Positions 44,762-61,160 of a stretch of DNA of 64,000 bases are shown here, in pieces. The stretch spans positions 1-64,000 of IMG/VR virus record IMGVR_UViG_3300044858_002168. The stretch is one strand, 5' to 3'. This DNA is from an uncultured virus (IMG/VR IMGVR_UViG_3300044858_002168) (Duplodnaviria; Heunggongvirae; Uroviricota; Caudoviricetes). The notes beneath the pieces are model-generated. The model had not been told where the DNA came from and searched no databases. It saw only the letters and a program-made list of their open reading frames with translations. The position numbers and the translations under genes are program-made. How positions within the stretch are numbered: the stretch's first letter is position 1; the number at the start of each line of letters is the position of its first letter.

Positions 44762-44879
44762 TAGTATTTTATAAACACACCGGGGACCACGGTGCGCACC
44801 GTACGGCCTGACCCGCGGAAGGTGTCTCGAGAATACTCCGCATATATGTATTAAGTGGCGGTGTGCTTATAGAATACTA
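44762..44879 (-). ncRNA. Stem-enclosed small RNA cassette
   Basis: About 21-bp terminal inverted repeat (tagtattttataaacacaccg / cggtgtgcttatagaatacta). Confidence 0.6.
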
Positions 44880-44951
44880 TTTTATTAAGACACCGCACTT
44901 ACAGAGGTAACGCGTACCACGGCTAGATCTCGCCTCAATGTCTTAATAAAA
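44880..44951 (-). ncRNA. Stem-enclosed small RNA cassette
   Basis: ttttattaagaca / tgtcttaataaaa inverted repeat. Confidence 0.5.
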
Positions 44952-44952
44952 T

Positions 44953-45275
44953 GCCACATGATTTGTAACAAGGACATGTGGCCAAACCCTGGCTCAGCTA
45001 GTTTTTTAGGCTGCTAGAGCGTAAACGCTGTCGTTTGCATTTAAGTTTTTGCTGTTTCGGATTGAGAAACCCCAACCCTACGGCTTTCACATTGCCGGGT
45101 TGCCGTCTTCACTATCTCACGCTGTCGAAACCACATCCGGCCCATCAAAAACATATTAGTACACAGTTTTCCCATTTCAGGTTTTAGAGTACCTTATCGG
45201 GCTAATATGCTTTTGGTGGACCGGGGCGGGAATGATCCGCCGTCCAACATGCCTTCGATCTGACAGAATTACAAC
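44953..45275 (-). ncRNA. ssrA: Circularly permuted (two-piece) tmRNA
   Basis: The acceptor piece ending CCGGTCC-ACCA (45214) precedes the coding piece starting GGGCCGG-ATGTGGTTTCGAC (45143). G3:U pair; tag ORF ANDSVYALAA* at 45038-45006. Outer ends approximate. Confidence 0.92.
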
Positions 45276-45397
45276 CATATTCTACTACAATCGGGACTCG
45301 AACCCGTATGCGACCCGTTCTTCCTGGCCTGTCTACTCTGTATCCGGATTTAGGAGTAAACTATCGGTGTTCCAGTGTAGTCGGCTAAGTAGTGGTA
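45274..45397 (-). ncRNA. Small RNA with T-arm motif upstream of tmRNA
   Basis: CGGG-TTCGAGT-CCCG hairpin; 3' end AATATGGT resembles the cassette family. Confidence 0.45.
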
Positions 45398-45670
45398 CTA
45401 GATTTCTTCGGTGACAACACCATCCATCTTGTCTTCAAAAAACTGACGGTACCGGTGGGTTAAATCGTACTGACGTTGCAGTGCTTCAACCTGTGCCAGG
45501 AACGTAGAACGGGCTGCTTCATAGGCCAGTGCAAAACCAACCACGGCCTCATCGTCTTGTTCGGTAACGTCGATGCCGCTCAGTTTGGTGGTGGGCTCCT
45601 GAACCACCAATACTTGGCGGTTACTGATCTTGCCTTTCAGGTCTGTGTATACAAATGTTTTCAGTTTCAT
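45398..45670 (-). CDS. Hypothetical protein
   Basis: 90-aa ORF with own promoter (TCGACA-17-TATAAT, 45696-45724). Confidence 0.7.
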   Translation of the reverse strand: MKLKTFVYTDLKGKISNRQVLVVQEPTTKLSGIDVTEQDDEAVVGFALAYEAARSTFLAQVEALQRQYDLTHRYRQFFEDKMDGVVTEEI

Positions 45671-45733
45671 GGGGTTTTACCGTTTGAGAACAACTATTAT
45701 AGCCCAAAAGCTCAACACTGTCGAGTGAAAAAT

Positions 45734-46003
45734 TTATTGGGTCTTTTCCAGGTTGAGGGCAAGTGCATTCCGAAAACGGGCACCCATGCTGGGTACTATG
45801 CACGAAGCAATGATCAGTGGAGCGATCAACACACTCATCAAGAAAAAGGTCACTACACTGATCTTCCAGTAGGTCACCACCATCAGCTCAGGGTGTGTGA
45901 TCCTCAAACTGGAAATTACAGGCCAAAACAGTTCATATACTGCAACCAATCCTGTGGTGACTGCGCATAGGAGATAGAAACTGATGACTGTCATTGAACC
46001 CAC
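45734..46003 (-). CDS. Membrane protein
   Basis: Two hydrophobic segments. Confidence 0.65.
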   Translation of the reverse strand: MGSMTVISFYLLCAVTTGLVAVYELFWPVISSLRITHPELMVVTYWKISVVTFFLMSVLIAPLIIASCIVPSMGARFRNALALNLEKTQ

Positions 46004-46374
46004 CTTGCACGTGCACCAAAGCTAAACATGACCTTTTCATTGGTGTTGGGTGGTCGCTCCTTGCTGTACGGTCCGGGCGATAACAGTGCTGCAGCTTGGA
46101 GTTTTTCATTGTTGGAAAACATGTCCATGTCTACTCGGCCACAGAACCTCTTGAACAGCACGGCTTGACGAATCATACTGTGCGTCCAGAATGGTGTTGT
46201 TGGGGTACGTCGACGGTATGCCACATTGGTGATGGCCTTGGCCAGTTGTTCGTTGTTGGGGTGGTCTTTCAGTGCCCTCTTCAAACGCTTGATACGATTG
46301 CGCTCCCAAACTCGCGCCGACTTGTAGTTTGCTGACTGAGAAACCTTGCTGTTGCCGCCACTCTTATTTGCCAT
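45991..46374 (-). CDS. Basic hypothetical protein
   Basis: 127-aa ORF, GAGG RBS. Confidence 0.65.
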   Translation of the reverse strand: MANKSGGNSKVSQSANYKSARVWERNRIKRLKRALKDHPNNEQLAKAITNVAYRRRTPTTPFWTHSMIRQAVLFKRFCGRVDMDMFSNNEKLQAAALLSPGPYSKERPPNTNEKVMFSFGARARWVQ

Positions 46375-46633
46375 ATGTTGTAAATACCTCGTAGTATGTT
46401 GTTTTGTTTTCTTTGTGTTCTAAAATCTTGATCAATCCCAACTCTTCCAAGAACCCCATGCAAGTTACCACTTCCTCTGGGCTTTCACAGACGACGCCAC
46501 CCATAAAGAGGTAATCTTTGATATGATTTACCACTTCTAGGGTCAGATAGTTTCCAGATAGGGGTTTTAAGTAGTCAAGTATTAGACCCAGTGGATTGAA
46601 GTTGTTCTGATAGATTTTCATTGTGTAACACAT
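46364..46633 (-). CDS. Hypothetical protein
   Basis: ORF in operon. Confidence 0.55.
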   Translation of the reverse strand: MCYTMKIYQNNFNPLGLILDYLKPLSGNYLTLEVVNHIKDYLFMGGVVCESPEEVVTCMGFLEELGLIKILEHKENKTTYYEVFTTYGK

Positions 46634-47273
46634 CCTTCAGAGCCGGAAACTCGCCTAACAAGATGTCTAAACAGGCCTGGGCTACTTCACGGTGCTCTTT
46701 TTGGGTACCCATATCTGTTCTGAGCATGCAGTAGTGAATCCAGCTGCGTACACTTCCGGCCATATATAGACGGCTATGTGTTAAACCTTCTGGCAACACA
46801 GCACGAGCCTGCTCTTTAGCAATACCGTTGGTCAAGGCCCAGGTATACGCTCGTTTTACTACTCGTAACACGTCCTGTTGCTGAGACTGCCAAACTTCCA
46901 CCAGCTCTTTGTCGTCTGTCTCCAAACTGGCCTGACGATTCTTGAGGTCTTGCATTCGTGCTTCACGGACCTCAAAACCCAAGTCGTCTGCACGGGCATA
47001 TCGTTGGCTGAATTCTTGGAAAGAGAAGCTGCGATGACGCAAGATCTGGCGTGCAATGTCACGGGTAGTGTTGATCTCCACTACCATGTGAGCCATTTCA
47101 AAGGGGCTCCAGTGTTGGTTTTTCACCAAGTATTTAAGCAGCTTTGGCGCAGTCTCTGTGTTGAGCTGGTTACTGGGATTGCTAACACGGGCAATATAGG
47201 CCAACATGTCGTTGACAGTTGGAACTTCTGGAATCTTGCTTTCTGTGACTCCTATCAATTTTACAGCGTTCAA
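46575..47273 (-). CDS. thyX: Flavin-dependent thymidylate synthase
   Basis: HWSPFEM, RQILRHRSFSFQEFSQRY, EQARAVLP. Confidence 0.95.
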   Translation of the reverse strand: MNAVKLIGVTESKIPEVPTVNDMLAYIARVSNPSNQLNTETAPKLLKYLVKNQHWSPFEMAHMVVEINTTRDIARQILRHRSFSFQEFSQRYARADDLGFEVREARMQDLKNRQASLETDDKELVEVWQSQQQDVLRVVKRAYTWALTNGIAKEQARAVLPEGLTHSRLYMAGSVRSWIHYCMLRTDMGTQKEHREVAQACLDILLGEFPALKDVLHNENLSEQLQSTGSNT

Positions 47274-47575
47274 CGGCGGTCTTCCTTTTGAAAGAAATCC
47301 AGTACTTGGTCTAGTTCATTGTAGGTACGTTCACGAATGTTATCACACTCTTGTATCATCTTATGCATCTTTTTAGCTGCAAACAACACCATATCTGCTT
47401 CGTGCGCATTGTCCAATGCAAGTGGAAAGTGTCGGCCACAGGTGTCATAGAAACACACCTGGTCTTCGTCTAGTACGGCACGGTACCAATAGTGTTGTCC
47501 GTCATGTTTAAATGTTTCACTGGGATCAACATTGTTGTATTCGTTGAAGTCTACGGGGCCAAAAAATAGTTCCAT
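47270..47575 (-). CDS. Hypothetical protein
   Basis: Start MELFFG; the longer track start overlaps tRNA-Leu. Confidence 0.65.
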   Translation of the reverse strand: MELFFGPVDFNEYNNVDPSETFKHDGQHYWYRAVLDEDQVCFYDTCGRHFPLALDNAHEADMVLFAAKKMHKMIQECDNIRERTYNELDQVLDFFQKEDRR

Positions 47576-47641
47576 TACTTTCTTTCTTAGGTTAAAATTA
47601 AAAACGCAAAAAGCCACAGCAAAATCTGCTGTGGCTCGTGT

Positions 47642-47729
47642 TGGTACCCCCGGCCGGACTCGAACCGGCACGCACATAGTCGGCGAGGGATTTTAAGTCC
47701 CTTGTGTCTACCAATTCCACCACAGGGGC
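47642..47729 (-). tRNA. tRNA-Leu(TAA)
   Basis: Class II cloverleaf, CCA. Confidence 0.95.
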
Positions 47730-47734
47730 GTACA

Positions 47735-48136
47735 TCAGGCAATGACGTCGTGATAGAACATACACAGCAGGTTGCCTACAATGGTATCATCATGACCATA
47801 ACGAACAGGAACCATGACGGTATTTCCATTGACAAAACGATCTACTGCTAGTTCTGCACCAATCTTCTTGTTGAAGCTGTCTTTGGGTGAGCAATATGCC
47901 AGAGCAACCTCTACCATACGAGTGTTACGCCAGTTGCTGCACTTGCGATAAGCAATTGTAACACCGCCACGATTGTCGTGACGATTATAACCATGACAAA
48001 TTCGAAGGTCTAAATCTTCTATGTCGTCTAGGTAGGTGTTGGTATACATAGGGGTTGGATTGATTGGAAAAGGCCAGGCTTGTTGTGCCTTGGGAAAGTC
48101 AATCTTGTTACGGGTGTTTGTTTGGTAAATTATCAT
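47735..48136 (-). CDS. Hypothetical protein
   Basis: GGVTIAY...AYCSPKDSFNKKIG motif. Confidence 0.65.
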   Translation of the reverse strand: MIIYQTNTRNKIDFPKAQQAWPFPINPTPMYTNTYLDDIEDLDLRICHGYNRHDNRGGVTIAYRKCSNWRNTRMVEVALAYCSPKDSFNKKIGAELAVDRFVNGNTVMVPVRYGHDDTIVGNLLCMFYHDVIA

Positions 48137-48154
48137 GGTGATGTTGTGGTTAGT

Positions 48155-48229
48155 TGGCGGCCTCAAGGGGAATCGAACCCCTGCCATCGCCGTGACAGGG
48201 CGACATTCTTGCCGTTAAACTATGAAGCC
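48155..48229 (-). tRNA. tRNA-Asp(GTC)
   Basis: Cloverleaf, loop CTGTCAC, GCCA. Confidence 0.95.
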
Positions 48230-48387
48230 GACTTATTCCAAGCTGCTTGGATTTGTTCATAGACTTGTTCAAACTGTTGTAGAGTACAGCCAGTACTTTT
48301 CATTACAAAAGTTCGAAGTTGTTCGCCTACCATGTTTAGGTCCAATGCAGTCACGATTGTCTTAAAGACAAAGTATTCATTATCCAT
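48220..48387 (-). CDS. Small ORF (55 aa) ending inside tRNA-Asp
   Basis: MDNEYFVFKTIV...NKSAS*; TAG = tRNA nt 8-10; weak RBS. Confidence 0.45.
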   Translation of the reverse strand: MDNEYFVFKTIVTALDLNMVGEQLRTFVMKSTGCTLQQFEQVYEQIQAAWNKSAS

Positions 48388-48389
48388 AT

Positions 48390-48418
48390 ATTATAGTCCA
48401 AATAACACAACACTTCAA
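48390..48418 (-). promoter_or_regulatory. Sigma70-type promoter
   Basis: TTGAAG-17-TATAAT. Confidence 0.75.
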
Positions 48419-48432
48419 GTCAAAAATTAAGT

Positions 48433-48508
48433 TGGTCCACTCTCTTGGAATCGAACCAAGTCCCCTGGATTTTCAGTCCAGTGTACGCACCAGCTATACC
48501 AAAAGTGG
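48433..48508 (-). tRNA. tRNA-Phe(GAA)
   Basis: Cloverleaf, CCA. Confidence 0.92.
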
Positions 48509-48509
48509 T

Positions 48510-48584
48510 TGGTAGGATGTGACGGACTCGAACCGCCGACAGTCGTCTTGTAAGGGCGATGTTCTACCACTGAACTAACATCCT
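48510..48584 (-). tRNA. tRNA-Val(TAC)
   Basis: Cloverleaf, CCA. Confidence 0.92.
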
Positions 48585-48585
48585 A

Positions 48586-48664
48586 TGGAGCGGGCAGGGA
48601 GAGTCGAACTCCGCGTTCTTCAGCTTGGAAGGCTGTTGGTGGCCCCTTCACCTTGTCTGCCCGC
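48586..48664 (-). tRNA. tRNA-Gly(TCC), atypical D-arm
   Basis: GCGGGCA/TGCCCGC-TCCA acceptor, loop CTTCCAA; lacks U8 and the standard D-loop. Confidence 0.8.
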
Positions 48665-48757
48665 ACGTACCTCTTCAACCTCAACAAAGTTGTGGTTGTC
48701 AAAACTCCACAACAGGTAGCTTTGTGGAGTGTCATCAAAAATCTTTATTACGTCCAT
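48620..48757 (-). CDS. Small ORF (45 aa) reading into tRNA-Gly
   Basis: TAAGGA RBS; MDVIKIFDDTPQSY...; stop inside the tRNA. Confidence 0.45.
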   Translation of the reverse strand: MDVIKIFDDTPQSYLLWSFDNHNFVEVEEVRAGRQGEGATNSLPS

Positions 48758-48771
48758 ATTAAATCCTTAGG

Positions 48772-48843
48772 GGTGACCTACGAGACTCGAACTCGTACCC
48801 CCACAGTCACAATGTGAGGTGCTGACCATTACACCAAGGTCAC
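48772..48843 (-). tRNA. tRNA-His(GTG)
   Basis: Cloverleaf, C73; CCA not encoded (CCT), no genomic G-1. Confidence 0.88.
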
Positions 48844-48854
48844 GCCTAAGGATT

Positions 48855-48929
48855 TGGAGCCACCGGAGAGACTCGAACTCCCGACCACTACGTTCGTAGC
48901 GTAATGCTCTTCCACTGAGCTACGGTGAC
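48855..48929 (-). tRNA. tRNA-Arg(ACG)
   Basis: Cloverleaf, loop CTACGAA. Confidence 0.93.
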
Positions 48930-48930
48930 C

Positions 48931-49004
48931 TGGAAACCCCTCAGAGAATCGAACTCTGGTGTTCAGATTTGCAATCTGCTGCCTAACCTCTTGGCTAAGG
49001 GGTT
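48931..49004 (-). tRNA. tRNA-Cys(GCA)
   Basis: Cloverleaf, U73. Confidence 0.92.
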
Positions 49005-49037
49005 ATTAAAATGTTACTTCTTACATAATTTTCTTTG

Positions 49038-49127
49038 TGGCGGAAGTGGAGAGAGTCGAACTCCCAAGGCTGTTTCCAACTCGGCTGTTTTCAAGACAGT
49101 TTTCGTCGCCAATCGATTTGCACTTCC
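49038..49127 (-). tRNA. tRNA-Ser(TGA)
   Basis: Long variable arm, G73. Confidence 0.9.
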
Positions 49128-49130
49128 CTT

Positions 49131-49206
49131 TGGGTTCCGATTACGGACTCGAACCGCAACTTCAAGGTTTTGGAAACCTGACGACTAGCCATTGTCTTAA
49201 TCGGAA
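49131..49206 (-). tRNA. tRNA-Trp(CCA)
   Basis: Loop TTCCAAA; unusual C73. Confidence 0.8.
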
Positions 49207-49214
49207 GCTGTATT

Positions 49215-49306
49215 TGGCAGTGAGTGAGGGATTCGAACCCTCGGACCCTGTTTCCAGAATCTCTTTCTTAGCAGGAAAGTGATTTAAACCGCTCATCCAA
49301 CTCACT
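49215..49306 (-). tRNA. tRNA-Ser(GCT)
   Basis: Long variable arm, G73. Confidence 0.92.
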
Positions 49307-49307
49307 G

Positions 49308-49382
49308 TGGTGGTTAAGGCTGGATTCGAACCAACGACCCCGACCGTATGAAGGTCTTGCACTACCGCTGTGCTACATAACC
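49308..49382 (-). tRNA. tRNA-Met(CAT), elongator-type
   Basis: Loop TTCATAC, CCA. Confidence 0.85.
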
Positions 49383-49390
49383 AGATTGTT

Positions 49391-49465
49391 TGGCTCCACA
49401 GGCAGGGATCGAACCTACGACCAATTGATTAACAGTCAACTGCACTACCGCTGTGCTACTGTGGA
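49391..49465 (-). tRNA. tRNA-Asn(GTT)
   Basis: Cloverleaf, G73. Confidence 0.95.
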
Positions 49466-49475
49466 AATGTATTCT

Positions 49476-49688
49476 TTAATCTTCGTCGTCTTCGTCTTCC
49501 ATACCCTGATGGTACTTGGCAGCTTTGACAATGTCTTCTGTTACGGTATCATAGTCCTCATTGTAGATAAAACTAACGATTTGTGCCATGTCCTCTGCCC
49601 AGGAGATAAACTGCGTGGGCTTGTCAAGGGTAGGAGACATTTCCGCAAGATGTTCAATTGTCCGCTCATAGCTCTTTGTGTAGTACAT
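49476..49688 (-). CDS. Acidic hypothetical protein
   Basis: AAGGA RBS, 70 aa. Confidence 0.65.
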   Translation of the reverse strand: MYYTKSYERTIEHLAEMSPTLDKPTQFISWAEDMAQIVSFIYNEDYDTVTEDIVKAAKYHQGMEDEDDED

Positions 49689-49702
49689 TTAACTATTTCC
49701 TT

Positions 49703-50011
49703 TTAGGTGTGTTCAACTATTTCGATACCAGCCGATCTAATGGCACTACTACACACTACACACGGCCGAGCCGTGGCCGGGGAACCGTCTTCCAAAAACC
49801 GAAATATCTTCATACTATGCGCCTTGGCTAAGTCACGGCACAGTGAGATTGCATGAATCTCTGCATGAAGAAATACACGGTGGGGTTCCCCGGCCAGTTT
49901 AGCGTGGGCTGCTTGAAGTGGGTGAGTCTTGATGTAACTGTTCTTACCCACACTCATCACTCTACCACGCTTGTCATAAATTATTGCAGTGATGTTGTAT
50001 CGTTTCGTCAT
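49703..50011 (-). CDS. Zn-dependent cytidine/deoxycytidylate deaminase-family protein
   Basis: HAE...PCxxC motifs. Confidence 0.85.
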   Translation of the reverse strand: MTKRYNITAIIYDKRGRVMSVGKNSYIKTHPLQAAHAKLAGEPHRVFLHAEIHAISLCRDLAKAHSMKIFRFLEDGSPATARPCVVCSSAIRSAGIEIVEHT

Positions 50012-50227
50012 CTAATCATTATACGGCTTTGACTGTGACTTTTCAATATAAGTTTTTTCACAGTCTTCGGGTGGTTCTTGAAAGTACTCAGCCTTCATGA
50101 CCACACTCTTGGATTCTCGAGCATGTATAGCGCGCTCTGCCGCTTCACAGCTGGAGAGCGTGTCAAAAACACAACGCCCACGTTCACCGTACTTGTATTT
50201 CCCATTACTGCACTTGTAGCATGGCAT
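50012..50227 (-). CDS. Cys-containing hypothetical protein
   Basis: AGGAG RBS; MPCYKCSNGKYKYG. Confidence 0.65.
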   Translation of the reverse strand: MPCYKCSNGKYKYGERGRCVFDTLSSCEAAERAIHARESKSVVMKAEYFQEPPEDCEKTYIEKSQSKPYND

Positions 50228-50236
50228 TTTGTTCTC

Positions 50237-50617
50237 CTACAGTTGACTCTTATAAAAGTTGTGGACTGCTTGTTCACTATCCTGAACACCTAAGTGGGCG
50301 GCAAAAGCCTTCAAGAGGTCGCGTTCCTGATCCATATCAAAGATTGAATTGTGTAGGGCTAGGTACCCAGCCATCTGTGCCTGTGCATAGCTTTCAGGGC
50401 CGAAATGAAATACATCGTATAACACATACCGGTAGCTGCCATGTTCTTCAATCTCACCACGATGAATGCGACGCACGACCGCACAGAAGGCCTTCAACTG
50501 GTCGTCCTTACTCAGACTGTTCCAGTAGGCCTCCTGCTCGTGTTCAATAGCACTCATGGCTTGGTTAAATATGTCGCTGATTTCGTCCAATACTTTTCCT
50601 AATTCTTGCTGTTCCAC
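50237..50617 (-). CDS. Hypothetical protein
   Basis: GSYRYVLYDVFHFG...GYLALHN motif. Confidence 0.7.
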   Translation of the reverse strand: MEQQELGKVLDEISDIFNQAMSAIEHEQEAYWNSLSKDDQLKAFCAVVRRIHRGEIEEHGSYRYVLYDVFHFGPESYAQAQMAGYLALHNSIFDMDQERDLLKAFAAHLGVQDSEQAVHNFYKSQL

Positions 50618-50707: not shown

Positions 50708-50712
50708 AGTTC

Positions 50713-50815
50713 TGGTAGAAGGGGTGGGAATCGAACCCACATTACTCCGCCTTATCTAGACGGTGCTCTACGAGTGTATAAGGCTCGCCCTTAGGCCAAT
50801 ATTAGCAACCCTTCC
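50713..50815 (-). tRNA. Atypical 103-nt tRNA-like RNA (TAT anticodon, very long variable arm)
   Basis: GGAAGGG/CCCTTCT-ACCA, canonical T arm, loop CTTATAC. Confidence 0.75.
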
Positions 50816-50901
50816 ATAAGTTACCACACGTTAAAATGATCTTCTGCGTTACAGCGCAATCTCCCACTTGTACAGGGCGATACATTTGTGTGGTAACTTA
50901 T
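50816..50901 (-). ncRNA. Stem-enclosed small RNA cassette
   Basis: 14-bp inverted repeat ataagttaccacac / gtgtggtaacttat. Confidence 0.55.
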
Positions 50902-50902
50902 A

Positions 50903-51025
50903 GAGAGCAGAATACTACTACATGCTGGTTACACTGTCCAGTCAATACCGTTACGCTAGTGAGGCATCCTAGTCACCAATAGTAGCTTTATAGGTTCAGT
51001 GGATTGGTTACCACACTCTACTCAA
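50903..51025 (-). ncRNA. Candidate structured small RNA
   Basis: ORF-free; GAGTAGA...TCTGCTC ends; internal hairpins. Confidence 0.4.
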
Positions 51026-51418: not shown

Positions 51419-51497
51419 TACCAAACATTATCACACCAGAAGAGGCGACCCTGTGGCCACAAGTTCCGGCTTATCTCTGGTGTGATAATGTTTGGTA
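51419..51497 (-). ncRNA. Stem-enclosed small RNA cassette
   Basis: 22-bp perfect inverted repeat taccaaacattatcacaccaga, starting at the tRNA-Lys CCA. Confidence 0.6.
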
Positions 51498-55157: not shown

Positions 55158-55250
55158 ACCATATTGAAACACACTCTTGGCTGTCTAAACACGCGGTTGA
55201 TCAGTCCGCTCACCTTTGCCCTATTGTGGGAGAATGTGTTTTAATATGGT
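55158..55250 (-). ncRNA. Stem-enclosed small RNA cassette
   Basis: accatattgaaacacactct / agaatgtgttttaatatggt, starting at the tRNA-Leu CCA. Confidence 0.65.
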
Positions 55251-55323: not shown

Positions 55324-55326
55324 GAT

Positions 55327-55416: not shown

Positions 55417-55613
55417 TAGATTGATTGTTTGTAAGTCTTGATTGCGTCGGCATCTAGGCTACAGTAGACCCGGAACTTGTCACGACCAACCTCGTCGTAG
55501 AAGCGATTGGCCATGGACTCTAATTCTACAAGCTGTTCGATGGTGATCAGAGAACAGGCCAAAAACCTGCTCATGAATGCGTCAACTAGAAAGTCTTTGG
55601 TATAAGCAGCCAT
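55416..55613 (-). CDS. Hypothetical protein, stop overlaps the Tyr-like tRNA
   Basis: 65-aa ORF; the G of TAG is tRNA +1. Confidence 0.65.
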   Translation of the reverse strand: MAAYTKDFLVDAFMSRFLACSLITIEQLVELESMANRFYDEVGRDKFRVYCSLDADAIKTYKQSI

Positions 55614-55813
55614 TAACTCAGTACCTCATAGTCGTTGATGTTACCATGTTGGAACGTGTTCCACGGCTCTGCATCAATGCTCTGGGCAGTATAGCCTTCT
55701 ACATCTGTTATATAGGCACCCAGTTTTTTAGCAGCCCTGTACTCACTAGGAGCCCACACACAGTAGGCAGTCCAGTCACCTATTTCATCATAAACCCTGC
55801 AATACCAATGCAC
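55613..55813 (-). CDS. Hypothetical protein
   Basis: GGAG RBS, GTG start. Confidence 0.6.
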   Translation of the reverse strand: MHWYCRVYDEIGDWTAYCVWAPSEYRAAKKLGAYITDVEGYTAQSIDAEPWNTFQHGNINDYEVLS

Positions 55814-55827
55814 TTGTTACTCCGTTA

Positions 55828-55902
55828 TGGTCGAGCCACCAGGAATCGAACCTGGATTGACGGCTTAGAAGGCCGTTGTTCTGTCCGTTGAACTATGGCC
55901 CG
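55828..55902 (-). tRNA. tRNA-Arg(TCT)
   Basis: Cloverleaf, CCA. Confidence 0.93.
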
Positions 55903-55922
55903 AAAGATATATTATGGCACTT

Positions 55923-56912
55923 TCAGTGACCAACTTCAAGACAGAATTTATCGGCTGCCAAGTTCTTCATCTTCGACTCCAGCATGATATCATGCGTGTT
56001 GGAGAAACTGTAGGCCCAGCAGTTACTAGCCGTATTCCAGTAGTAATCACTGTGAGCACGCAGTTGGGTTTTTGTGTATCCCAAATACAACAGCTCTACC
56101 AAGTCTGGTAACAGGTCTGGGTCCCAGCCGTCTAACACTTCTTCTCGACTGAGTGAGTAGTGGATTACAGGACGCACGCCGCGCCAGCTTTCCATCATCC
56201 TTAAGACTCGACTATCACTTGGTTGGATATACTCACCAGTTCTAATTAGGTGATGGTGAATGTCCAACACAAGAGCGCAATCGTTGACCAGTTCCAGACT
56301 GGCGTCCACTCCCCACTTGAACTCGTCGTTTTCTACAGTGATAACATTTCGTGCTTCACGGCTCAACTTCTTCAACGCAGCTTTAAAGCCAGTTGGGCCA
56401 GCCTTGCCGCCAATGTGGATGTTGCATTTAAAGTCTTGGAAAACTTTGCCGTACCCCATGTAACGGATCAAGTCTACGTGATACTCGAATTCCTGGATAG
56501 AGTTCTCCACAACTTGTGGATTCTCAGATCCCAACACACAAAACTGGCCTGGATGAAAACTCAGTCTTACGTCCAATTCTCGAGCACGATTGCCTACCTT
56601 CATCAATTCACGTTCTAGGAAGGTCACTGTGTCGTGTTCCCAGTAGAACCAGCTCCAGTCGTCGTGAGTATATGCGGGTAACACATCGCTGCTTATACGC
56701 AGCATACGCCGACCAGGTGGCAGGGCTCCCACATGGTTTACCTGACTCATTAAAGCCACTACGTTGTGCTTCATCAAGTCTGTCAACTTTTCAACAGCCC
56801 TTTGACGGGTGGCTGAATTCAACCACGTAATAGTGGTGGTCTTGATGTTGGGGACACTTAGTTCTTCGAACTTGCAGGCAAAGCCGACTCTGTTGATTTG
56901 TTGATTAAACAT
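55923..56912 (-). CDS. uvsE: UV damage endonuclease
   Basis: GFAC, RISSD, RLSFHPGQF, VEND, VLDIHHH, RAHSD, DIMLESKMK; promoter at 56935-56963. Confidence 0.92.
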   Translation of the reverse strand: MFNQQINRVGFACKFEELSVPNIKTTTITWLNSATRQRAVEKLTDLMKHNVVALMSQVNHVGALPPGRRMLRISSDVLPAYTHDDWSWFYWEHDTVTFLERELMKVGNRARELDVRLSFHPGQFCVLGSENPQVVENSIQEFEYHVDLIRYMGYGKVFQDFKCNIHIGGKAGPTGFKAALKKLSREARNVITVENDEFKWGVDASLELVNDCALVLDIHHHLIRTGEYIQPSDSRVLRMMESWRGVRPVIHYSLSREEVLDGWDPDLLPDLVELLYLGYTKTQLRAHSDYYWNTASNCWAYSFSNTHDIMLESKMKNLAADKFCLEVGH

Positions 56913-56964
56913 AGTTGTAGTTGATTAAAACACTATTTTATATCAAATGACTATAACAATCAAG

Positions 56965-57561
56965 TCAGGGATTTACAAGGTAAAAGGCTTTGCTAAAGCC
57001 CAATGGTGTCATACTTCGTAGTTCTTTTGTTTTTTCACTCTTGCCGCCCAGCCTCATAATGGGACTATTGCCCAATGAGGGCTCAACAGGCTTTTTCTCT
57101 GGGGTATTGAAGGTTCCCCACAGTCCGGTACGCTTGTTGTAGGCCTCGGTTGATGGATCGGATAGATAGCCAGCAAACTCGCAGGGATTGAAATACCATG
57201 GTGTTCCCAGTTCTGGGAACAATTTGTTCAACCGGCCCACAGGGTTTTCAATTGCCCAAACACGCGGTTTGTAGTAGTGGATCAATTCTAGGGTCTTGGA
57301 CACCAGGTCCATGCTAGCCTCAGTGCGACCATCGTTGTCTTTGGTCTTCCAGTACTGAGCACCGCTTGAGGCAAAGTCAGTACAGGGTGGAGCTGCGAGT
57401 ATGATTCCTATCTCTGAGGCCGGAATGTCGTCTGGTGTTAGGTCCAGTATGTCCACACCAAGTTTGACGTCTACTTGGTAGACTTCGTAGCCGCTTTCAC
57501 GGTAGGGACTACTCCATCGGCCGCTAAAGTCAAACAATGACAGTACTGTTTTACATTCCAT
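56965..57561 (-). CDS. C5 cytosine DNA methyltransferase-like protein
   Basis: LSLFDFSG, PPCTDF, ENPVG. Confidence 0.8.
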   Translation of the reverse strand: MECKTVLSLFDFSGRWSSPYRESGYEVYQVDVKLGVDILDLTPDDIPASEIGIILAAPPCTDFASSGAQYWKTKDNDGRTEASMDLVSKTLELIHYYKPRVWAIENPVGRLNKLFPELGTPWYFNPCEFAGYLSDPSTEAYNKRTGLWGTFNTPEKKPVEPSLGNSPIMRLGGKSEKTKELRSMTPLGFSKAFYLVNP

Positions 57562-57757
57562 AAAATCGATTACATACTTTGCAAATTGGGTTGCCGTCCA
57601 AGTCTGGGATCAATTCTGTACTACGAAACCAGATACTACAATTGCTGCAGGTTTCGATGGTGGGAATGTCTGCTTCTTCCACTGGGATGTTGAACTCCAA
57701 ACACGCTTCCAATAAACTCTTCTTTTTACGGTACAGGGACTTCTCTAGTTCATTCAT
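57551..57757 (-). CDS. Zinc-finger protein
   Basis: CSNC...CKVC. Confidence 0.65.
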   Translation of the reverse strand: MNELEKSLYRKKKSLLEACLEFNIPVEEADIPTIETCSNCSIWFRSTELIPDLDGNPICKVCNRFYGM

Positions 57758-58260
57758 CTTTTAAAACGGTCATCATTGTTGTATCGGTCCTTGTACTTGC
57801 TGTAGTAAATCAGGAAAATTACATTGCAGCCAGCGTGGGCTAGGTGGCTCAGTCCACTTTCAGGGTCCAAGTCCTCACCACGACTCCAGGCGAATAAATG
57901 GCGGAACAGTGAGCTTAACACTCGGGTATAACGGAAACCATCTCCTTGGGTCCAGTTGTGGGCAGCGTACTTACGAGCACCAAACTCCAATACCTTGTTG
58001 ATTTCTTCTACCGCCTCAAACGGCATCAAACTCCAGTCCGTTTTACCACTGTCATATTTAACTGCAGTGGCCTCAGTTTTAGGGTCTGGAGTTGGGTCCA
58101 CAGTAACCTTAGATAAAACAGGCGGACTGTCCTGTACTGTGACTGTGATGTTAACAGGCGGACTGTCCTGTACTGTGACTGTGATGTTGTCATCACCAGG
58201 GGTTGGAAATGGATGGTCAAAGTCTTTCCAGAACTGTTGTAGGTCTGATCGAGAATTCAT
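57754..58260 (-). CDS. dATP/dGTP diphosphohydrolase N-terminal (DUF5664-like) protein
   Basis: KYDSGK, GARKYAAHNW, RHL...DPESGLSHLAHA; duplicated NITVTVQDSPPV. Confidence 0.8.
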   Translation of the reverse strand: MNSRSDLQQFWKDFDHPFPTPGDDNITVTVQDSPPVNITVTVQDSPPVLSKVTVDPTPDPKTEATAVKYDSGKTDWSLMPFEAVEEINKVLEFGARKYAAHNWTQGDGFRYTRVLSSLFRHLFAWSRGEDLDPESGLSHLAHAGCNVIFLIYYSKYKDRYNNDDRFKR

Positions 58261-58525
58261 AGATGGTTGAGTTAGGTTGATAGTTGGGGGCCCGGGATCG
58301 CACCGGGCACACAGATGGCCATCTGTGTTGCAGATCTTACCCTCTGGCTCGGTAATAACTTCACGTTATTCAAAACAGCACTTGGCATACAGATCCGTAC
58401 TGTTGGGTAGAGCTACTGCACTGGTTTCAAGCAGTTTGTATAGTTCTGCTTTCATGAGATACAGCTTATGGACAGTTTAGTTTTTTCATGGCTTTCGCTC
58501 GTGCAGGGTAAACGTCAAAACCCCG

Positions 58526-58705
58526 TTAATTATCCAGTGGCCAAGGTTTAAAGAGGGCCGGCTCTTTGCGAGATAGTTTATCCACTACTGGCATTTCCAA
58601 CACAGGTTTGGCGCCACCAACCAGTTTGTAGTATTTGTGGTATACTGGCAGCAACTTACTGCACAAGTTTTCAAGGTCTTTAACGTACTGGTTGTCGTTG
58701 TTCAT
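58526..58705 (-). CDS. Hypothetical protein
   Basis: GAGG RBS; promoter TTGCGC-17-TATAAT at 58728-58756. Confidence 0.6.
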   Translation of the reverse strand: MNNDNQYVKDLENLCSKLLPVYHKYYKLVGGAKPVLEMPVVDKLSRKEPALFKPWPLDN

Positions 58706-58793
58706 GGTGGTATCCTCGCTATTTCGTATTATAGCACTATACCTGGACCCGCGCAAATCAAAAATTCTTTTGCTCATAGATTAAATTTAGATA

Positions 58794-58834
58794 AAACAAA
58801 AGCCACCGTGCCTTTAACAGCAGGGTGGCTTTTG
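58794..58834 (-). terminator. Intrinsic terminator closing the ncRNA block
   Basis: CAAAAGCCACC...GGTGGCTTTTG-TTTT. Confidence 0.8.
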
Positions 58835-59760
58835 AACCGATCGAGTTTTTGTTGCCTGTAGAAATTCAGACTGGGGTAACCCCCAGTATTCTACGAGTAC
58901 GTATTCGGCTTGTTGGCCAGGCGTTACAGGGATTTTCCAACCTCCCACTACAGTGTTCTAGTTTACGCTAGCTGTACGGATTTAAGTGTTTGTTTACCCG
59001 GTTGACTCCGGGGAAAGTTAGTTTACGGCAACTTCAGTCTATCACGTATGGACTCTGGGTCCCATATACCCACTGGTTTCGGTACCAACACACTAGTCGT
59101 AAAACTATGGTGGTTGGGTTTCGAAGTACCGACTAGATTTGATTAAACCGTTTACAAGTACAGGCTGTAACTGACCTCAGGCACGGATTTTTCTGTCCAG
59201 GCTAAAGCCCCGCCCTTCCCGGTCAATCCGGAGGCCGATATGTTTTTTGACAGACACCACTCTCTCACTCTGACAGGCTGATTACTGTCCCTGGCGTGGA
59301 TTTAGATGACAGCCGTTGTGTACATAAATGCAGTGACTTCGGGCAAGTCTGACGCTACCACACATGATGCGTGTGTATCACAGTTAGTTGGTCGGTTCGG
59401 TATTTGATTTCCAATCCTTATACCTTGGCGGAGTATTGATAAACTATTAGAGTCGCCCCTCTTTAGTTTATTCGCTAGTGGGATTCCAGACCCACATTAC
59501 AGGATATATCCTGCTCTTGTTGTTCAGGTTGTGTGTTCCTGAGTTAGAAGATAGCTGTATTTTACAGACTTCTTTGTCTGCGAGTTTAACGTCACCTCAC
59601 CGTGGACGCGAGCATTTAAGGCAGTCTCGAAGCCGCAAATGTTTACCGTAGCCTGAAAGAAGCTGGTGTGGGTGTCATATTAACCGCCTTGCGAGCGGCC
59701 CTCACCATCGAAGGCTTAGGGAGTAAACCTGTCTGCCGAAACCTCAACAGTATAATCTAC
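58835..59760 (-). ncRNA. Candidate large structured ncRNA (GOLLD/ROOL-like size and context)
   Basis: No credible ORF; multiple GNRA-type hairpins and long-range complementarity on the minus strand. Confidence 0.6.
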
Positions 59761-59763
59761 GAA

Positions 59764-59967
59764 TTAAACACTTTAGGATTTGGAGAAACGAACGTGCTGC
59801 TTTGCTCAGAGAACTTTTCCAATTATTCCGTTCGACAACGCATAGAAACTCAAATATGCCTATTCGGTTTCTAGGATCTAGTTGGGCAGTGGGCATAGAC
59901 TCTTATCGCGTCTAGCGTGATCTTTGTCCTAGGCATTAGGACCTTTCTCCAAATTCTAAAGAGTTTG
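59764..59967 (-). ncRNA. Long-stem-enclosed RNA cassette
   Basis: ctttaggatttggagaaa / tttctccaaattctaaag inverted repeat. Confidence 0.5.
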
Positions 59968-60073
59968 TAGAGGGCTGTGGCTCGGTGACGTAGCTTGTCC
60001 ACAATTAAGTCGTATCACGTAGCAGTAATATATCGCTGTGACCGCTGACACCCTTTTCTCAACAATAAAATCT

Positions 60074-60102
60074 ATTATACACTAACGGGTAGTTACCATC
60101 AA
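60074..60102 (-). promoter_or_regulatory. Sigma70-type promoter driving ncRNA block
   Basis: TTGATG-17-TATAAT. Confidence 0.75.
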
Positions 60103-60117
60103 GTGTAAATTTTTATA

Positions 60118-60223
60118 CCATATTGAAACACACTGCTGGATCCTGACTACCGTTTACAACTATTAAGTCTACTGCCGTATTCCTAGTCTAGTGTAAAACT
60201 CGCCACAATGCGTTTCAATATGG
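60118..60223 (-). ncRNA. Stem-enclosed small RNA cassette
   Basis: ccatattgaaacacactg / caatgcgtttcaatatgg. Confidence 0.7.
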
Positions 60224-60394
60224 CAACAAGCCGATCTCCGCTATTATAGATCACATTCGTCCCCATATTACGCCGGCAGGGATAGCGGTAAGTAGTTACA
60301 GTTGATACGTGCTGGTAGCCAATTTATCCGACTCGAACGGACAGCTTACTAATGACATGCCTGTCACTGCTTTCTCAACATCTACACTTGTTTA

Positions 60395-60457
60395 CCATAT
60401 TGAAACACACTATGCCACGCTCTGAACCTGGGCTCTTAGTAATATGCTTCAATATGG
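60395..60457 (-). ncRNA. Stem-enclosed small RNA cassette
   Basis: ccatattgaaacacacta / taatatgcttcaatatgg. Confidence 0.7.
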
Positions 60458-60495
60458 CGACCCATTGTGGGGTGGACTTCGAAACCACCATTTCG

Positions 60496-60568
60496 CTGCG
60501 TTTTGACCACTAAACTAACGTTCCTTGGAAGGACCGTACGGGATTCGAACCCATGTCTCCTGCGTTTT
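60496..60568 (-). ncRNA. Permuted tRNA-like element (T arm, acceptor hairpin, D arm)
   Basis: A 3' half ending TCCA precedes a 5' half; no anticodon arm. Confidence 0.65.
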
Positions 60569-60635
60569 CCCTTAAAACTACCACGGGTCATCGGAGTCAT
60601 GACTTCCGACTATGTTAAAAGTTAATTACTCTTTT

Positions 60636-60758
60636 ACCATAGTTTAACACACTGCACTATCTAGATGGATCAGTAGCTGTATTCCGGAATTATCTACTAT
60701 CCCCACCCTACGCTCCCGTGGACCTTTGGGAATGGCTTGCAATGTATTAAACTATGGT
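60636..60758 (-). ncRNA. Stem-enclosed small RNA cassette
   Basis: accatagtttaacacactgca / tgcaatgtattaaactatggt. Confidence 0.7.
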
Positions 60759-60821
60759 TTGTCTCACACAATAAATATATTATTGCACAAACAACAAAAT
60801 GTTTCAAGACAATAATCTTTA

Positions 60822-60958
60822 ACCATATTTCAGCACACTGATTAGGGAATCGAACCCTTTACGACTGCGCTTTTGTATCACCATGACATAGTATTACCTA
60901 TTGTGGCAGGATTCGAACCTGCTTCTACGTTGACCACGTCAGTGTGCTGAAATATGGT
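60822..60958 (-). ncRNA. Stem-enclosed cassette with two T-arm motifs
   Basis: 20-bp perfect inverted repeat; GCAGG-TTCGAAT-CCTGC and AGGG-TTCGATT-CCCT. Confidence 0.7.
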
Positions 60959-61035
60959 CCCGTCGCGTCACTGAACGGGTACGGTTTCCATGGCCGTGAA
61001 AGGATAACTCCACCATGTACACACCAAAACGCACT

Positions 61036-61160
61036 TACCATATTTTAACACACTGTCGTTTCGCGTTCACTTCTAGAATCACCAGATTACGAATTTCTGG
61101 AACTTCACAGCTTACAAGGCTGGTCGTCAAACTACTGGGGCAGTGTGCTAAAATATGGTA
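61036..61160 (-). ncRNA. Stem-enclosed small RNA cassette
   Basis: taccatattttaacacactg / cagtgtgctaaaatatggta, starting at the tRNA-Glu CCA. Confidence 0.7.

What the first reader, a model, noticed from the sequence alone, without database searches (positions are those of the whole stretch)
44762..61160. Family of 'carrier-stem' small-RNA cassettes: conserved terminal helix, unrelated cargo
Seen: about ten 60-140 nt non-coding elements (44762, 44880, 50816, 51419, 55158, 60118, 60395, 60636, 60822, 61036) are each closed by a 13-22 bp inverted repeat. Six share the minus-strand consensus CCATAkTtnAryAcAyT...AGTGTGyTnnAmTATGG, and most others keep the GTGTG arm. Most arm mismatches are G:U on the minus (transcribed) strand but A:C on the plus strand, which points to selection on an RNA helix. 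Three begin exactly at the CCA of the preceding tRNA (Leu, Lys, Glu). The interiors are unrelated, and some carry tRNA parts. Known: T4 and T5 tRNA clusters encode a few stable RNAs of unknown function. Inference: a modular RNA expression system in which one processing or binding signal releases many different RNA payloads (decoys for defence nucleases, aptamers or tRNA mimics).
Basis: partly seen in the sequence, partly recalled or inferred. Interest (0 to 1): 0.9.

Follow-up and report, generated by a model that had tools for sequence, protein, structure and literature searches.

The report
Stem-closed small-RNA cassettes behind phage tRNAs
An uncultured lake phage carries, in its tRNA gene cluster, a family of small RNA genes that are each closed by the same 19-base-pair stem starting on the CCA end of a tRNA, and related and unrelated phages swap the inner parts like cassettes; what the inner RNAs do is unknown.

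Summary
The window has six canonical cassettes (55159-55249, 60118-60223, 60395-60457, 60637-60757, 60823-60957, 61038-61158, minus strand) and three diverged ones (51419-51497, 50812-50905, 44762-44886). The family is widespread. I collected 185 unique cassettes from 113 of 133 sources, nearly all inside phage tRNA clusters. The closing helix is a fixed 19 bp (R-CCAUAUUGAARCAYAYUN paired with NAGUGUGYUUCAAUAUGGU). It covaries, and its G:U pairs lie on the tRNA strand (123 cassettes against 8). In 81 of 185 it starts exactly on the CCA of a tRNA, mostly Glu, Lys, Gln, Leu, Thr or Ile. Cargo is very diverse (145 clusters). Some cargo has its own covarying structure. Different cargo occupies the same site between identical flanks. 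The family occurs in phage lineages with unrelated core genes. It has no Rfam match, and four literature searches found no description. Earlier agents of this scan noted the same family on other DNA. Best reading (0.45): an RNA processing stalk, probably cut by host RNase III, that frees the tRNA and a stem-capped small RNA and also serves as the homology handle for cargo exchange. Cleavage and cargo function are untested. Anticodon-loop decoys found no support.

The parts
61038..61158 (-). Cassette C1. The helix starts on the CCA of tRNA-Glu(UUC) (61156-61230). The cargo is 85 nt and holds a Thr-type anticodon-arm fragment.
   Evidence: (E 4.4e-11)
60823..60957 (-). Cassette C2. The cargo has two T-arm hairpins, one identical over 20 nt to the tRNA-Pro gene.
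   Evidence: (E 1.2e-9)
60637..60757 (-). Cassette C3. It is preceded by a promoter-like site (60807-60779). A related cargo occurs in L129.
   Evidence: (E 3.8e-10)
60395..60457 (-). Cassette C4, the shortest at 63 nt. Its 27-nt cargo is conserved in L009, L102 and L107.
   Evidence: cluster 3; E 6.1e-15
60118..60223 (-). Cassette C5, the last of the array. It is followed by the promoter of the large non-coding RNA.
   Evidence: (E 2e-12)
55159..55249 (-). Cassette C6. The helix starts on the CCA of tRNA-Leu(UAG) (55247-55323).
   Evidence: E 2.6e-13
51419..51497 (-). Variant cassette V1. It has a 23-bp helix from the discriminator and CCA of tRNA-Lys(UUU) (51493-51568). The outer 8 bp are fully covaried and the inner CACAC/GUGUG motif is kept.
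   Evidence: E about 1e-5
50812..50905 (-). Variant cassette V2. Its 5' end reads CUAUA rather than CCAUA and no tRNA lies upstream. Its 3' arm abuts the tRNA-like gene 50716-50815.
   Evidence: E 0.0085
44762..44886 (-). Variant cassette V3, downstream of the tmRNA gene. The helix has diverged, but the cargo is orthologous to canonical cassettes beside tmRNA genes in L029 and L073.
   Evidence: (E 0.5)
45139..45218 (-). Borderline. This is the intervening hairpin of the permuted tmRNA gene, between the CCA of the acceptor piece and the 5' end of the coding piece. Its 3' arm resembles a cassette arm.
   Evidence: E 0.048
44357..44560 (-). Borderline. A 16-bp long-range helix runs from the CCA of tRNA-Thr (44556-44631) to the start of ORF 44044-44394. 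Its sequence differs from the family.
   Evidence: E 0.26
60458..60636 (-). Spacer RNA between C3 and C4. It has two T-arm-like hairpins and ends in G-CCA, which forms the first base pairs of C4. L045 ends in a similar way.
60958..61037 (-). Spacer between C1 and C2. It ends in a hairpin plus A-CCA, which forms the first base pairs of C2.
61510..61538 (-). Promoter-like site (11 of 12 matches) ahead of tRNA-Glu. It is the likely start of the non-coding operon.
   Evidence: a consensus match only

Best explanation
These are transcribed small-RNA cassettes that belong to phage tRNA operons. Each is closed by a fixed-length 19-bp RNA helix. The first four base pairs use the discriminator base and CCA of the RNA just upstream, which is a tRNA or a hairpin RNA ending in RCCA.

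I read the helix as a processing stalk. A double-strand-specific nuclease, most likely host RNase III, would cut near the helix centre. The upstream tRNA would keep a short trailer that exonucleases trim back to CCA. The cargo would be released capped by the inner, sequence-conserved half of the helix (ARCAYAYU / AGUGUGYU).

Because all cassettes share the arms, the arms also serve as the homology on which cargo is exchanged. Fixed slots behind certain tRNAs therefore hold different small RNAs in different phages.

Shown here: the RNA-level helix, the CCA anchoring, the fixed length, cargo structure, cargo exchange, and spread across phage lineages. Inferred: the cut, the enzyme, the mature ends, and recombination through the arms. 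Cargo function is unknown.
For: - Strand. Of 131 cassettes with a strand call and one-way tRNAs nearby, 123 lie on the tRNA strand and 8 on the other. Over the first 17 bp the tRNA strand has 228 G:U and 58 mismatches, and the opposite strand has 41 G:U and 245 mismatches.
- Covariation. 97.4% of cells are paired against 90.0% in shuffles. 12 of 19 pairs change on both sides (shuffles 5.8, sd 1.3; 0 of 500 reach it). Slid controls give 25-50% paired.
- Fixed length. Pairing is 96-100% at positions 1-17 apart from position 8 (88%; 16 of its 22 unpaired cells are A:C), 81% at position 18 and at chance from position 19. The flanking pair is R:U in 153 of 177. An RNase III dimer takes about 22 bp, and its central two pairs usually include a G-C (PMC6212723, passages read). 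Here a G:C at position 8 sits in an A/U-rich centre in 106 of 177.
- CCA anchoring. 81 of 185 cassettes start on the CCA of an ARAGORN-called tRNA. Many others follow tRNAs that ARAGORN missed or hairpins ending in RCCA. Position -1 is A or G in 175 of 185, and the base after GG is T in 169 of 185.
- No terminator-like site lies at any cassette.
- Presence or absence is precise: at three sites the empty form reads CCA followed by the downstream flank.
- Exchange. Sites with 100%-identical 40-nt flanks hold unrelated cargo, for example L051, L125 and G001, or L106 and L118.
- Cargo is under selection: compensatory changes occur in the cargo hairpins of cluster 1.
- No phage-encoded RNase III in 0 of 5 cassette-bearing records, and G000, G001 and G002 share no RNA-related gene. 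This points to a host enzyme.
- The excised intervening segment of the window's two-piece tmRNA gene is a weak cassette look-alike (E 0.048).
Against: - No cleavage site or mature end was seen. The only RNA data are assembled contigs, which cannot show ends.
- RNase III needs little sequence, yet the inner 8 bp and a U:G wobble at position 16 (132 of 177) are nearly invariant across unrelated phages. That fits a sequence-specific reader, or homogenisation by recombination, better than a generic dsRNA cut.
- At 19 bp the helix is at the lower edge of RNase III substrates.
- The short pseudo-symmetry UUGAA/UUCAA is centred on a base pair, not between two pairs as a 2-nt staggered cut would predict (my reasoning).
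- My collection required CCATA/TATGG ends and 14 or more paired positions. Positions 1-5 are therefore invariant by construction and the pairing percentages are inflated.
- The strong preference for slots behind Glu, Lys, Gln, Leu, Thr and Ile tRNAs is not explained by a plain processing role.
Confidence: 0.45

Rival explanations
1. Protein-binding scaffold in the style of a Y RNA. The conserved helix would be the docking site for one host or phage protein. The variable cargo would be the effector module, so each cassette makes a different ribonucleoprotein. Cutting of the helix would not be needed.
For: Sequence is conserved beyond what pairing needs. A10, C12, A13, A15 and U17 are near-invariant, and U:G at position 16 occurs in 132 of 177. 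This holds across phages with unrelated core genes. The architecture of a terminal stem with a variable far end matches Y RNAs. 17 of 185 cargos hold a T-arm, and cluster 1 has a T-arm plus a D-like hairpin, as in bacterial YrlA (recalled).
Against: No TROVE/Ro gene in 0 of 5 cassette-bearing phage records, including 3 that are at least 90% complete. No Y RNA or other Rfam match at E up to 5. The helix is perfect and lacks the bulge of Ro-binding stems (recalled). No conserved protein gene is linked to the cassettes in G000, G001 and G002. A naked 19-bp duplex would be exposed to RNase III.
Confidence: 0.2
2. A device acting in cis on the upstream tRNA. The hairpin would exist mainly to shape or time the 3' end of particular tRNAs. 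It could hide the CCA in a duplex until processing, or mimic a tRNA stem for RNase P as terminator hairpins do behind some E. coli tRNAs. The cargo would be secondary.
For: The helix begins at the discriminator and CCA. Slot use is strongly biased by tRNA: Glu 23 of 49, Lys-UUU 15 of 34, Gln 7 of 23, and 0 for each tRNA species of Trp, Cys, His, Ala, Asp, Phe, Pro and Val counted at least five times. 40 of 185 cassettes are followed within 10 nt by the next tRNA, so RNase P would set their 3' end. The tmRNA intervening hairpin is similar.
Against: Some cassettes stand behind a promoter or another cassette with no tRNA upstream: C3, V2 and the tandem pair in L105. Cargo has its own conserved, covarying structure and recurs behind different tRNAs in 8 of 22 multi-member clusters. 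Most tRNAs in the same clusters manage without a cassette: 626 of 704.
Confidence: 0.17
3. A DNA-level element. The inverted repeats would act as single-stranded DNA hairpins or terminal repeats for a recombinase, transposase or nuclease, in the manner of an integron attC site, a MITE or a homing cassette. The transcripts would be incidental.
For: Presence, absence and replacement occur at identical sites. Arms are conserved while interiors are unrelated. Structure alone cannot separate RNA from ssDNA (PMC5737381, passage read).
Against: There is no target-site duplication at three filled/empty site pairs. Interiors are not copies of one parent (145 clusters). Arm pairs more than 200 nt apart are all cross-pairs of neighbouring cassettes, so none encloses an ORF. 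Pfam found no integrase, transposase, GIY-YIG or HNH domain in the 57 window ORFs scanned. G:U asymmetry follows the tRNA strand 123 to 8. Cargo hairpins covary. The exact use of the tRNA's own CCA as helix base pairs makes sense for RNA.
Confidence: 0.08
4. Intrinsic terminators or plain stability hairpins with no specific role.
For: They are long stable hairpins at the ends of tRNA genes.
Against: No U-run follows the stem: after GG comes T and then mostly A. 0 terminator-like sites fall at the cassettes in 58.7-61.7 kb. Cassettes stand in tandem inside operons. Length and sequence are conserved across lineages.
Confidence: 0.03

Closest known systems
RNase III processing stalks (16S/23S rRNA flanking helices; phage T7 early-RNA RNase III hairpins)
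   Same: A long duplex is formed by the sequences flanking a stable RNA inside a polycistronic non-coding transcript. The length is about two helical turns. A single G:C sits in an A/U-rich centre (PMC6212723, passages read).
   Different: Cleavage is not shown. One near-invariant helix sequence is shared by hundreds of units in unrelated phages. The helix uses the CCA of the preceding tRNA. The enclosed RNA is freely exchangeable.
Phage T4 RNAC and RNAD (species 1 and 2), small stable RNAs of the T4 tRNA cluster
   Same: Both are small non-coding RNAs co-encoded with phage tRNAs and have unknown roles (PMC3014915, passage read). I recall, but did not see, a 1976 report that RNase III cuts T4 species 1 RNA.
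   Different: blastn against 50,697 phage records matched only the tRNA-Glu gene, so no sequence relation was found. T4 has two fixed RNAs, not a family with a shared stem and swapped cargo.
Y RNAs / bacterial YrlA
   Same: A terminal stem is formed by the 5' and 3' ends and is conserved between paralogues, while the far end is variable. Some far ends are tRNA-like.
   Different: There is no Rfam match and no Ro/TROVE gene in 0 of 5 phage records. The helix is perfect, and the units are embedded in tRNA operons and anchored on CCA.
Integron attC sites and gene cassettes; promoter-stem-loop (PeSL) shuffling modules of T4-type phages (the latter recalled)
   Same: A conserved boundary structure surrounds unrelated inserts, and inserts are exchanged at fixed sites.
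   Different: The inserts are 25-170 nt structured RNAs, not genes. Selection is on the transcribed strand as RNA. No integrase was found in the window's ORFs.
Intervening segment of two-piece (permuted) tmRNA genes
   Same: It begins right after the CCA of one RNA piece and ends at the 5' end of the next, and it is removed during maturation. The window's own copy resembles a cassette (E 0.048).
   Different: The similarity is weak, and it occurs once per gene with no exchangeable cargo.
tRNA-linked hairpin RNAs of murine gammaherpesvirus 68 (tRNA-miRNA units; recalled)
   Same: A viral tRNA-like gene is followed directly by hairpin RNAs that tRNA-processing enzymes release.
   Different: That system is eukaryotic, with Pol III transcription and the miRNA pathway. 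There is no shared conserved stem and no homology.

Membership tests
RNase III processing stalk | Duplex of about 20 bp or more formed by the flanks of a stable RNA | tested here: met
   The helix is 19 bp (R:U plus 18 pairs). It is 96-100% paired at positions 1-17 apart from position 8 (88%), and at chance beyond position 19.
RNase III processing stalk | Staggered double cut by RNase III leaving 2-nt 3' overhangs | not testable with these tools
   Only assembled RNA-library contigs were available, and these show no ends.
RNase III processing stalk | Central two pairs paired, usually with a G-C (PMC6212723) | tested here: inconclusive
   G:C at position 8 occurs in 106 of 177, flanked by A/U pairs. 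The position of the cut is unknown.
Y RNA / YrlA | Match to the Rfam Y RNA or YrlA models | tested here: not met
   No such match at E up to 5 in 44400-62000, or at E up to 0.5 in 12 related loci.
Y RNA / YrlA | Linked Ro/Rsr (TROVE) gene | tested here: not met
   PF05731 was found in 0 of 5 cassette-bearing phage records. The control genomes were detected.
Y RNA / YrlA | tRNA-like module at the far end | tested here: inconclusive
   17 of 185 cargos have a T-arm-like hairpin. Cluster 1 has a T-arm plus a second hairpin. Most cargos have neither.
Integron attC / gene cassette | Sites flank ORF cassettes and occur with an integron integrase | tested here: not met
   Cargo is 25-168 nt. Arm pairs over 200 nt apart are cross-pairs of neighbouring cassettes. 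No integrase domain appears in the 57 window ORFs scanned.
MITE / transposon with terminal inverted repeats | Target-site duplication, and interiors derived from one parent element | tested here: not met
   Three filled/empty site pairs show no duplication. 185 cargos fall into 145 clusters.
Intrinsic terminator | G+C-rich stem followed by a U-run | tested here: not met
   The stem is A/U-rich, and the tail is T followed mostly by A. The scan finds no terminator-like site at the cassettes.
T4 RNAC/RNAD-type stable RNAs | Small non-coding RNA gene inside a phage tRNA cluster on the tRNA strand | tested here: met
   all model hits in two complete phage genomes lie in stretches of about 10 kb and 4.6 kb that also hold tRNA genes.
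T4 RNAC/RNAD-type stable RNAs | Sequence homology to the T4 RNAs | tested here: not met
   blastn of 60100-61240 against the phage collection matched only tRNA-Glu genes.
CRISPR repeat or crRNA mimic (solitary repeat, RNA anti-CRISPR) | Repeat sequence kept as sequence, with uniform spacer length | tested here: not met
   Positions 6-9 and 11 of the helix, where I recalled a resemblance to a common 8-nt crRNA handle, covary freely. Cargo length runs from 25 to 168 nt.

The most novel reading that the evidence does not exclude
This would be an integron-like exchange system for small structured RNAs. Fixed slots lie directly behind particular phage tRNAs (Glu, Lys, Gln, Leu, Thr, Ile). One conserved 19-bp RNA helix would act both as the processing or binding signal and as the recombination handle. 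Unrelated lake-phage lineages could then draw on a large shared pool of small RNA effectors (at least 145 cargo types among 185 cassettes). The fast turnover between near-identical phages points to host takeover or counter-defence.
Probability: 0.3. Interest if true: 0.9.

Novelty: new variant of a known kind. Interest (0 to 1): 0.78.

Why it matters
Phage tRNA clusters are usually read as codon-supply or anti-nuclease spare parts. This family shows that they also carry a large exchangeable repertoire of small structured RNAs under a common 'wrapper', shared by phages with unrelated core genes.

If the stem is a general release or binding signal, it gives a simple handle for finding phage small RNAs in metagenomes. 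One motif indexes more than a hundred unknown RNAs. It could also serve as a natural carrier for expressing RNAs in bacteria.

The slot preference for Glu, Lys and Gln tRNAs, which are frequent targets of anticodon nucleases (recalled), makes a link to defence directly testable.

Tried and rejected
- RNA evidence. One run search found six freshwater RNA libraries holding 7-14% of the sampled words. I laid four of them. All are assembled contigs. The cassette array (60.28-61.40 kb) has summed depth of only 0-4, and two short contigs cross cassette borders. This says nothing about processing or expression of small RNAs.
- Rfam. Nothing on the cassettes at the gathering thresholds, at E up to 5, or in 12 related loci at E up to 0.5.
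- Phage isolates. megablast and blastn against 50,697 phage records matched only tRNA genes.
- Bacterial genomes. A two-arm pattern gave 10 loci. Only 2 are true cassettes, both in tRNA-cluster contigs binned into freshwater actinobacterial MAGs. The other 8 have no continuing stem.
- Partner proteins. TROVE in 0 of 5 records, RNase III in 0 of 5, RNA ligase in 1 of 5. The ORFs shared by G000, G001 and G002 are a helicase, SbcC, ThyX, an unannotated 232-aa ORF and what reads like a cell-wall hydrolase (my reading). None is RNA-related.
- Antisense targets. Cargo against the whole contig gave only 11-15 nt chance-level matches, plus same-strand tRNA fragments.
- Anticodon-loop decoys. Not enriched.
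- ORF-bearing cassettes. None found.
- crRNA-handle resemblance. Dropped because that segment covaries.
- Literature. Four full-text searches and passages of PMC5737381 gave no description of this motif.
- Large RNA at 58.8-60.07 kb. No homologue in 5 phage records, in the fetched loci, or by one 18-nt pattern in viral contigs.

Full report
**Setting.** The window is the first 64 kb of a single 72,507-base virus contig.
- Its genes suggest a distant T5-like phage: family A DNA polymerase, DnaB-type helicase, primase, a two-part NAD ligase, SbcCD, flap nuclease, ThyX and UvdE. The T5 comparison is my recall.
- From 44.5 to 61.2 kb all 21 tRNA genes and a permuted tmRNA gene lie on the minus strand.
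- DNA runs that hold the stretch are lake-water metagenomes.

**The observation.**
- At 2 mismatches or fewer they form exactly six inverted pairs in the whole contig.
- Each pair folds into a 19-22 bp terminal helix.
- A covariance model built later scores the six at E 6e-15 to 1.2e-9 on the minus strand. It adds 51419-51497 (E about 1e-5) and 50812-50905 (E 0.0085).
- 44762-44886 scores weakly. Its cargo aligns with canonical cassettes next to tmRNA genes in two other phage contigs, so it is a member with a diverged helix.
- Three elements start on the CCA of tRNA-Leu, tRNA-Lys and tRNA-Glu.

**The family is widespread.**
- Looking for a complementary 5' arm within 45-260 nt (45-200 nt in the counted set), I found 185 unique cassettes in 113 of the 133 sources (132 loci plus the contig). 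107 sources hold at least one tRNA gene.
- Cassettes are 63-200 nt long, median 91.
- Caveat: this collection required CCATA and TATGG ends and at least 14 paired positions with one mismatch allowed. Positions 1-5 are invariant by construction and the pairing percentages are inflated.

**Evidence that it is an RNA helix.**
- Where a strand could be called and the nearby tRNAs point one way, 123 cassettes lie on the tRNA strand and 8 on the other. 36 are ties.
- Over the first 17 pairs the tRNA strand reads 228 G:U and 58 mismatches. The other strand reads 41 G:U and 245 mismatches.
- Position by position (177 of 185 cassettes used; 8 dropped for opposite strand call, short stem or missing flank), pairing is 96-100% at positions 1-17 apart from position 8 (88%), 81% at position 18, and no better than shuffles from position 19.
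- The base before CCA is A or G in 175 of 185. The base after the final GG is T in 169 of 185, which adds an R:U pair.
- The helix is therefore a fixed 19 bp.
- Positions 6-9, 11-14 and 18 carry many compensatory changes.
- A10, C12, A13, A15 and U17 are almost invariant, and U:G at position 16 occurs in 132 of 177.
- On a MAFFT alignment of 70 cassettes (the 70 shortest of 111 that were 100 nt or less; one row misaligned), the pair-count tool gives 97.4% paired against 90.0% in shuffles.
- In that alignment 12 of 19 pairs change on both sides (shuffles 5.8, sd 1.3; 0 of 500). Slid controls give 25-50% paired.

**Anchoring on CCA.**
- 81 of 185 cassettes begin exactly on the CCA of an ARAGORN-called tRNA.
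- Many of the other 104 follow tRNAs that ARAGORN missed (long-arm Ser/Tyr types), or hairpins followed by one base and CCA.
- Exceptions are C3, which stands behind a promoter-like site, and V2, which reads CUAUA with no tRNA upstream.
- 40 of 185 are followed within 10 nt by the next tRNA.
- Slot use depends on the tRNA. Of 704 unique tRNAs in these loci, 78 carry a cassette.

| tRNA | with cassette / total |
|---|---|
| Glu-UUC | 23 / 49 |
| Lys-UUU | 15 / 34 |
| Gln-UUG | 7 / 23 |
| Leu (three species) | 13 / 47 |
| Thr-UGU | 7 / 34 |
| Ile-GAU | 5 / 29 |

- For each tRNA species of Trp, Arg, Cys, His, Ala, Asp, Phe, Pro and Val counted at least five times, and for Ser-GCU, Ser-UGA and Gly-GCC, the count is 0.
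- Relatedness of the contigs inflates these counts. However, the 24 cassettes behind tRNA-Glu fall into 21 cargo clusters, and the 15 behind tRNA-Lys into 15. The slot persists while its content changes.

**Cargo.**
- 185 cargos fall into 145 sequence clusters.
- Some recur in several contigs with diverged arms, for example the 27-nt cargo of 60395-60457.
- 8 of 22 multi-member clusters occur behind two or more tRNA species.
- Cluster 1 has a T-arm abutting the 3' arm and a second hairpin, both with compensatory changes. Cluster 4 also keeps a structure.
- 17 of 185 cargos hold a T-arm-like hairpin, against 0.28 in shuffles.
- Two window cargos contain exact fragments of the phage's own tRNA-Pro and tRNA-Thr genes.
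- Anticodon-loop-like hairpins are not enriched.
- No cargo matched an Rfam family other than tRNA-type models in 12 loci.

**Exchange.**
- Comparing flanks, I found three sites where one contig has a cassette and another has none. The empty form reads CCA followed directly by the downstream flank, with no duplication.
- In L105 an extra cassette sits in tandem before another.
- Several sites hold different cargo between flanks that are identical over 40 nt. One is the site shared by L051 (129 nt), L125 (106 nt) and G001 (87 nt). Another is shared by L106 and L118, where even the arms are identical and only the interior differs.

**Spread.**
- Two complete cassette-bearing phage genomes (G001, 168 kb; G002, 162 kb) share no polymerase, helicase-loader or structural gene with this contig.
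- They nevertheless carry the same helix.
- The model finds 5 and 3 members in them, all within one stretch of about 10 kb and one of about 4.6 kb, both of which hold tRNA genes.
- Bacterial genomes lack the motif, apart from two phage-like tRNA contigs in freshwater MAGs.
- Cultured phage records gave no match beyond tRNAs.

**How it most likely works.**
- The element is not a terminator.
- It does not look like a transposon or an attC site.
- A perfect duplex of about two turns, made by the flanks of a stable RNA inside a non-coding operon, is the classical layout of an RNase III processing stalk. The A/U-rich centre with one G:C fits what is reported for E. coli sites (PMC6212723, passages read).
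- None of the five phage records searched encodes RNase III, Ro or a shared RNA enzyme, so a host enzyme is the economical reader.
- Such a cut would leave the tRNA with a short trailer to be trimmed, and the cargo capped by the conserved inner half-helix.
- Against this reading, no ends were seen and the helix is only 19 bp. The inner sequence and the U:G wobble are more conserved than RNase III would need. That keeps open a sequence-specific binding protein, or homogenisation through recombination between arms.
- I put 0.45 on the stalk reading, 0.2 on a protein scaffold, 0.17 on a cis role for the upstream tRNA, 0.08 on a DNA-level element and 0.03 on a terminator or stability hairpin.

**Comparison and novelty.**
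- The closest known things are RNase III stalks, the T4 RNAC and RNAD RNAs of unknown role (PMC3014915, passage read), Y RNAs, integron cassettes, and the intervening segment of two-piece tmRNA genes.
- The window's own tmRNA intervening segment is a weak look-alike.
- None of these combines a shared helix anchored on CCA with exchangeable structured cargo.
- I found no Rfam model and no paper.
- Earlier agents of this scan described the same family on other genomes, with the same leading reading. That is not independent evidence.

Noticed in passing
window 58800-60070 (minus strand): An ORF-poor stretch lies between a promoter-like site (60102-60074) and a terminator-like hairpin (58823-58803). 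In four freshwater RNA libraries from four studies, 58.58-59.71 kb has summed contig depth of 68-501 in 7 of 8 bin-and-run cells (9 in the eighth), against 0-41 elsewhere on the 17 kb laid. Variants replace a 150-nt inner part. The 921-nt core folds with z = -3.5. There is no Rfam match. This is probably an abundant large non-coding RNA next to the cassette array, in the position that GOLLD or ROOL RNAs take beside tRNAs.
   Followed up: partly
window 44947-45315 (minus strand): Phage-borne permuted (two-piece) tmRNA gene with tag ANDSVYALAA. It matches the Rfam beta-type and permuted models. Its intervening hairpin (45139-45218) resembles a cassette arm.
   Followed up: partly
window 50716-50815, 49042-49127, 48589-48660 (minus strand): Extra tRNA-like genes that ARAGORN did not call. 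One is a 100-nt tRNA match (34.4 bits), one a tRNA-Sec-like match below threshold (36.2 bits against 47), and one a weak tRNA match (23.4 bits).
   Followed up: no
window 60458-60636 and 60224-60394 (minus strand): The spacers between cassettes are themselves structured RNAs ending in RCCA. 60458-60636 has two T-arm-like hairpins and a 3' end like one in L045. A 72-nt spacer RNA ending in a short hairpin plus ACCA recurs in L032, L039, L045 and L052.
   Followed up: partly
L037:1-180; L072:459-654 and 4693-4892; L034:4765-4958: Other cassette-bearing phage contigs carry a GOLLD RNA fragment (E 1.3e-16, cut by the locus end) and about 195-nt group I introns inside their tRNA regions.
   Followed up: no
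window 44357-44560 (minus strand): A 16-bp long-range helix pairs the CCA and trailer of tRNA-Thr with the first codons of ORF 44044-44394. It could couple tRNA processing to expression of that ORF.
   Followed up: no
related loci: Cassette slots are strongly biased to tRNA-Glu(UUC), Lys(UUU), Gln(UUG), Leu, Thr(UGU) and Ile(GAU). They are absent behind 12 tRNA types that are common in the same loci. This is unexplained.
   Followed up: partly
window 53201-53824 (minus strand): A 207-aa ORF with collagen triple-helix repeats sits in the middle of the tRNA region.
   Followed up: no
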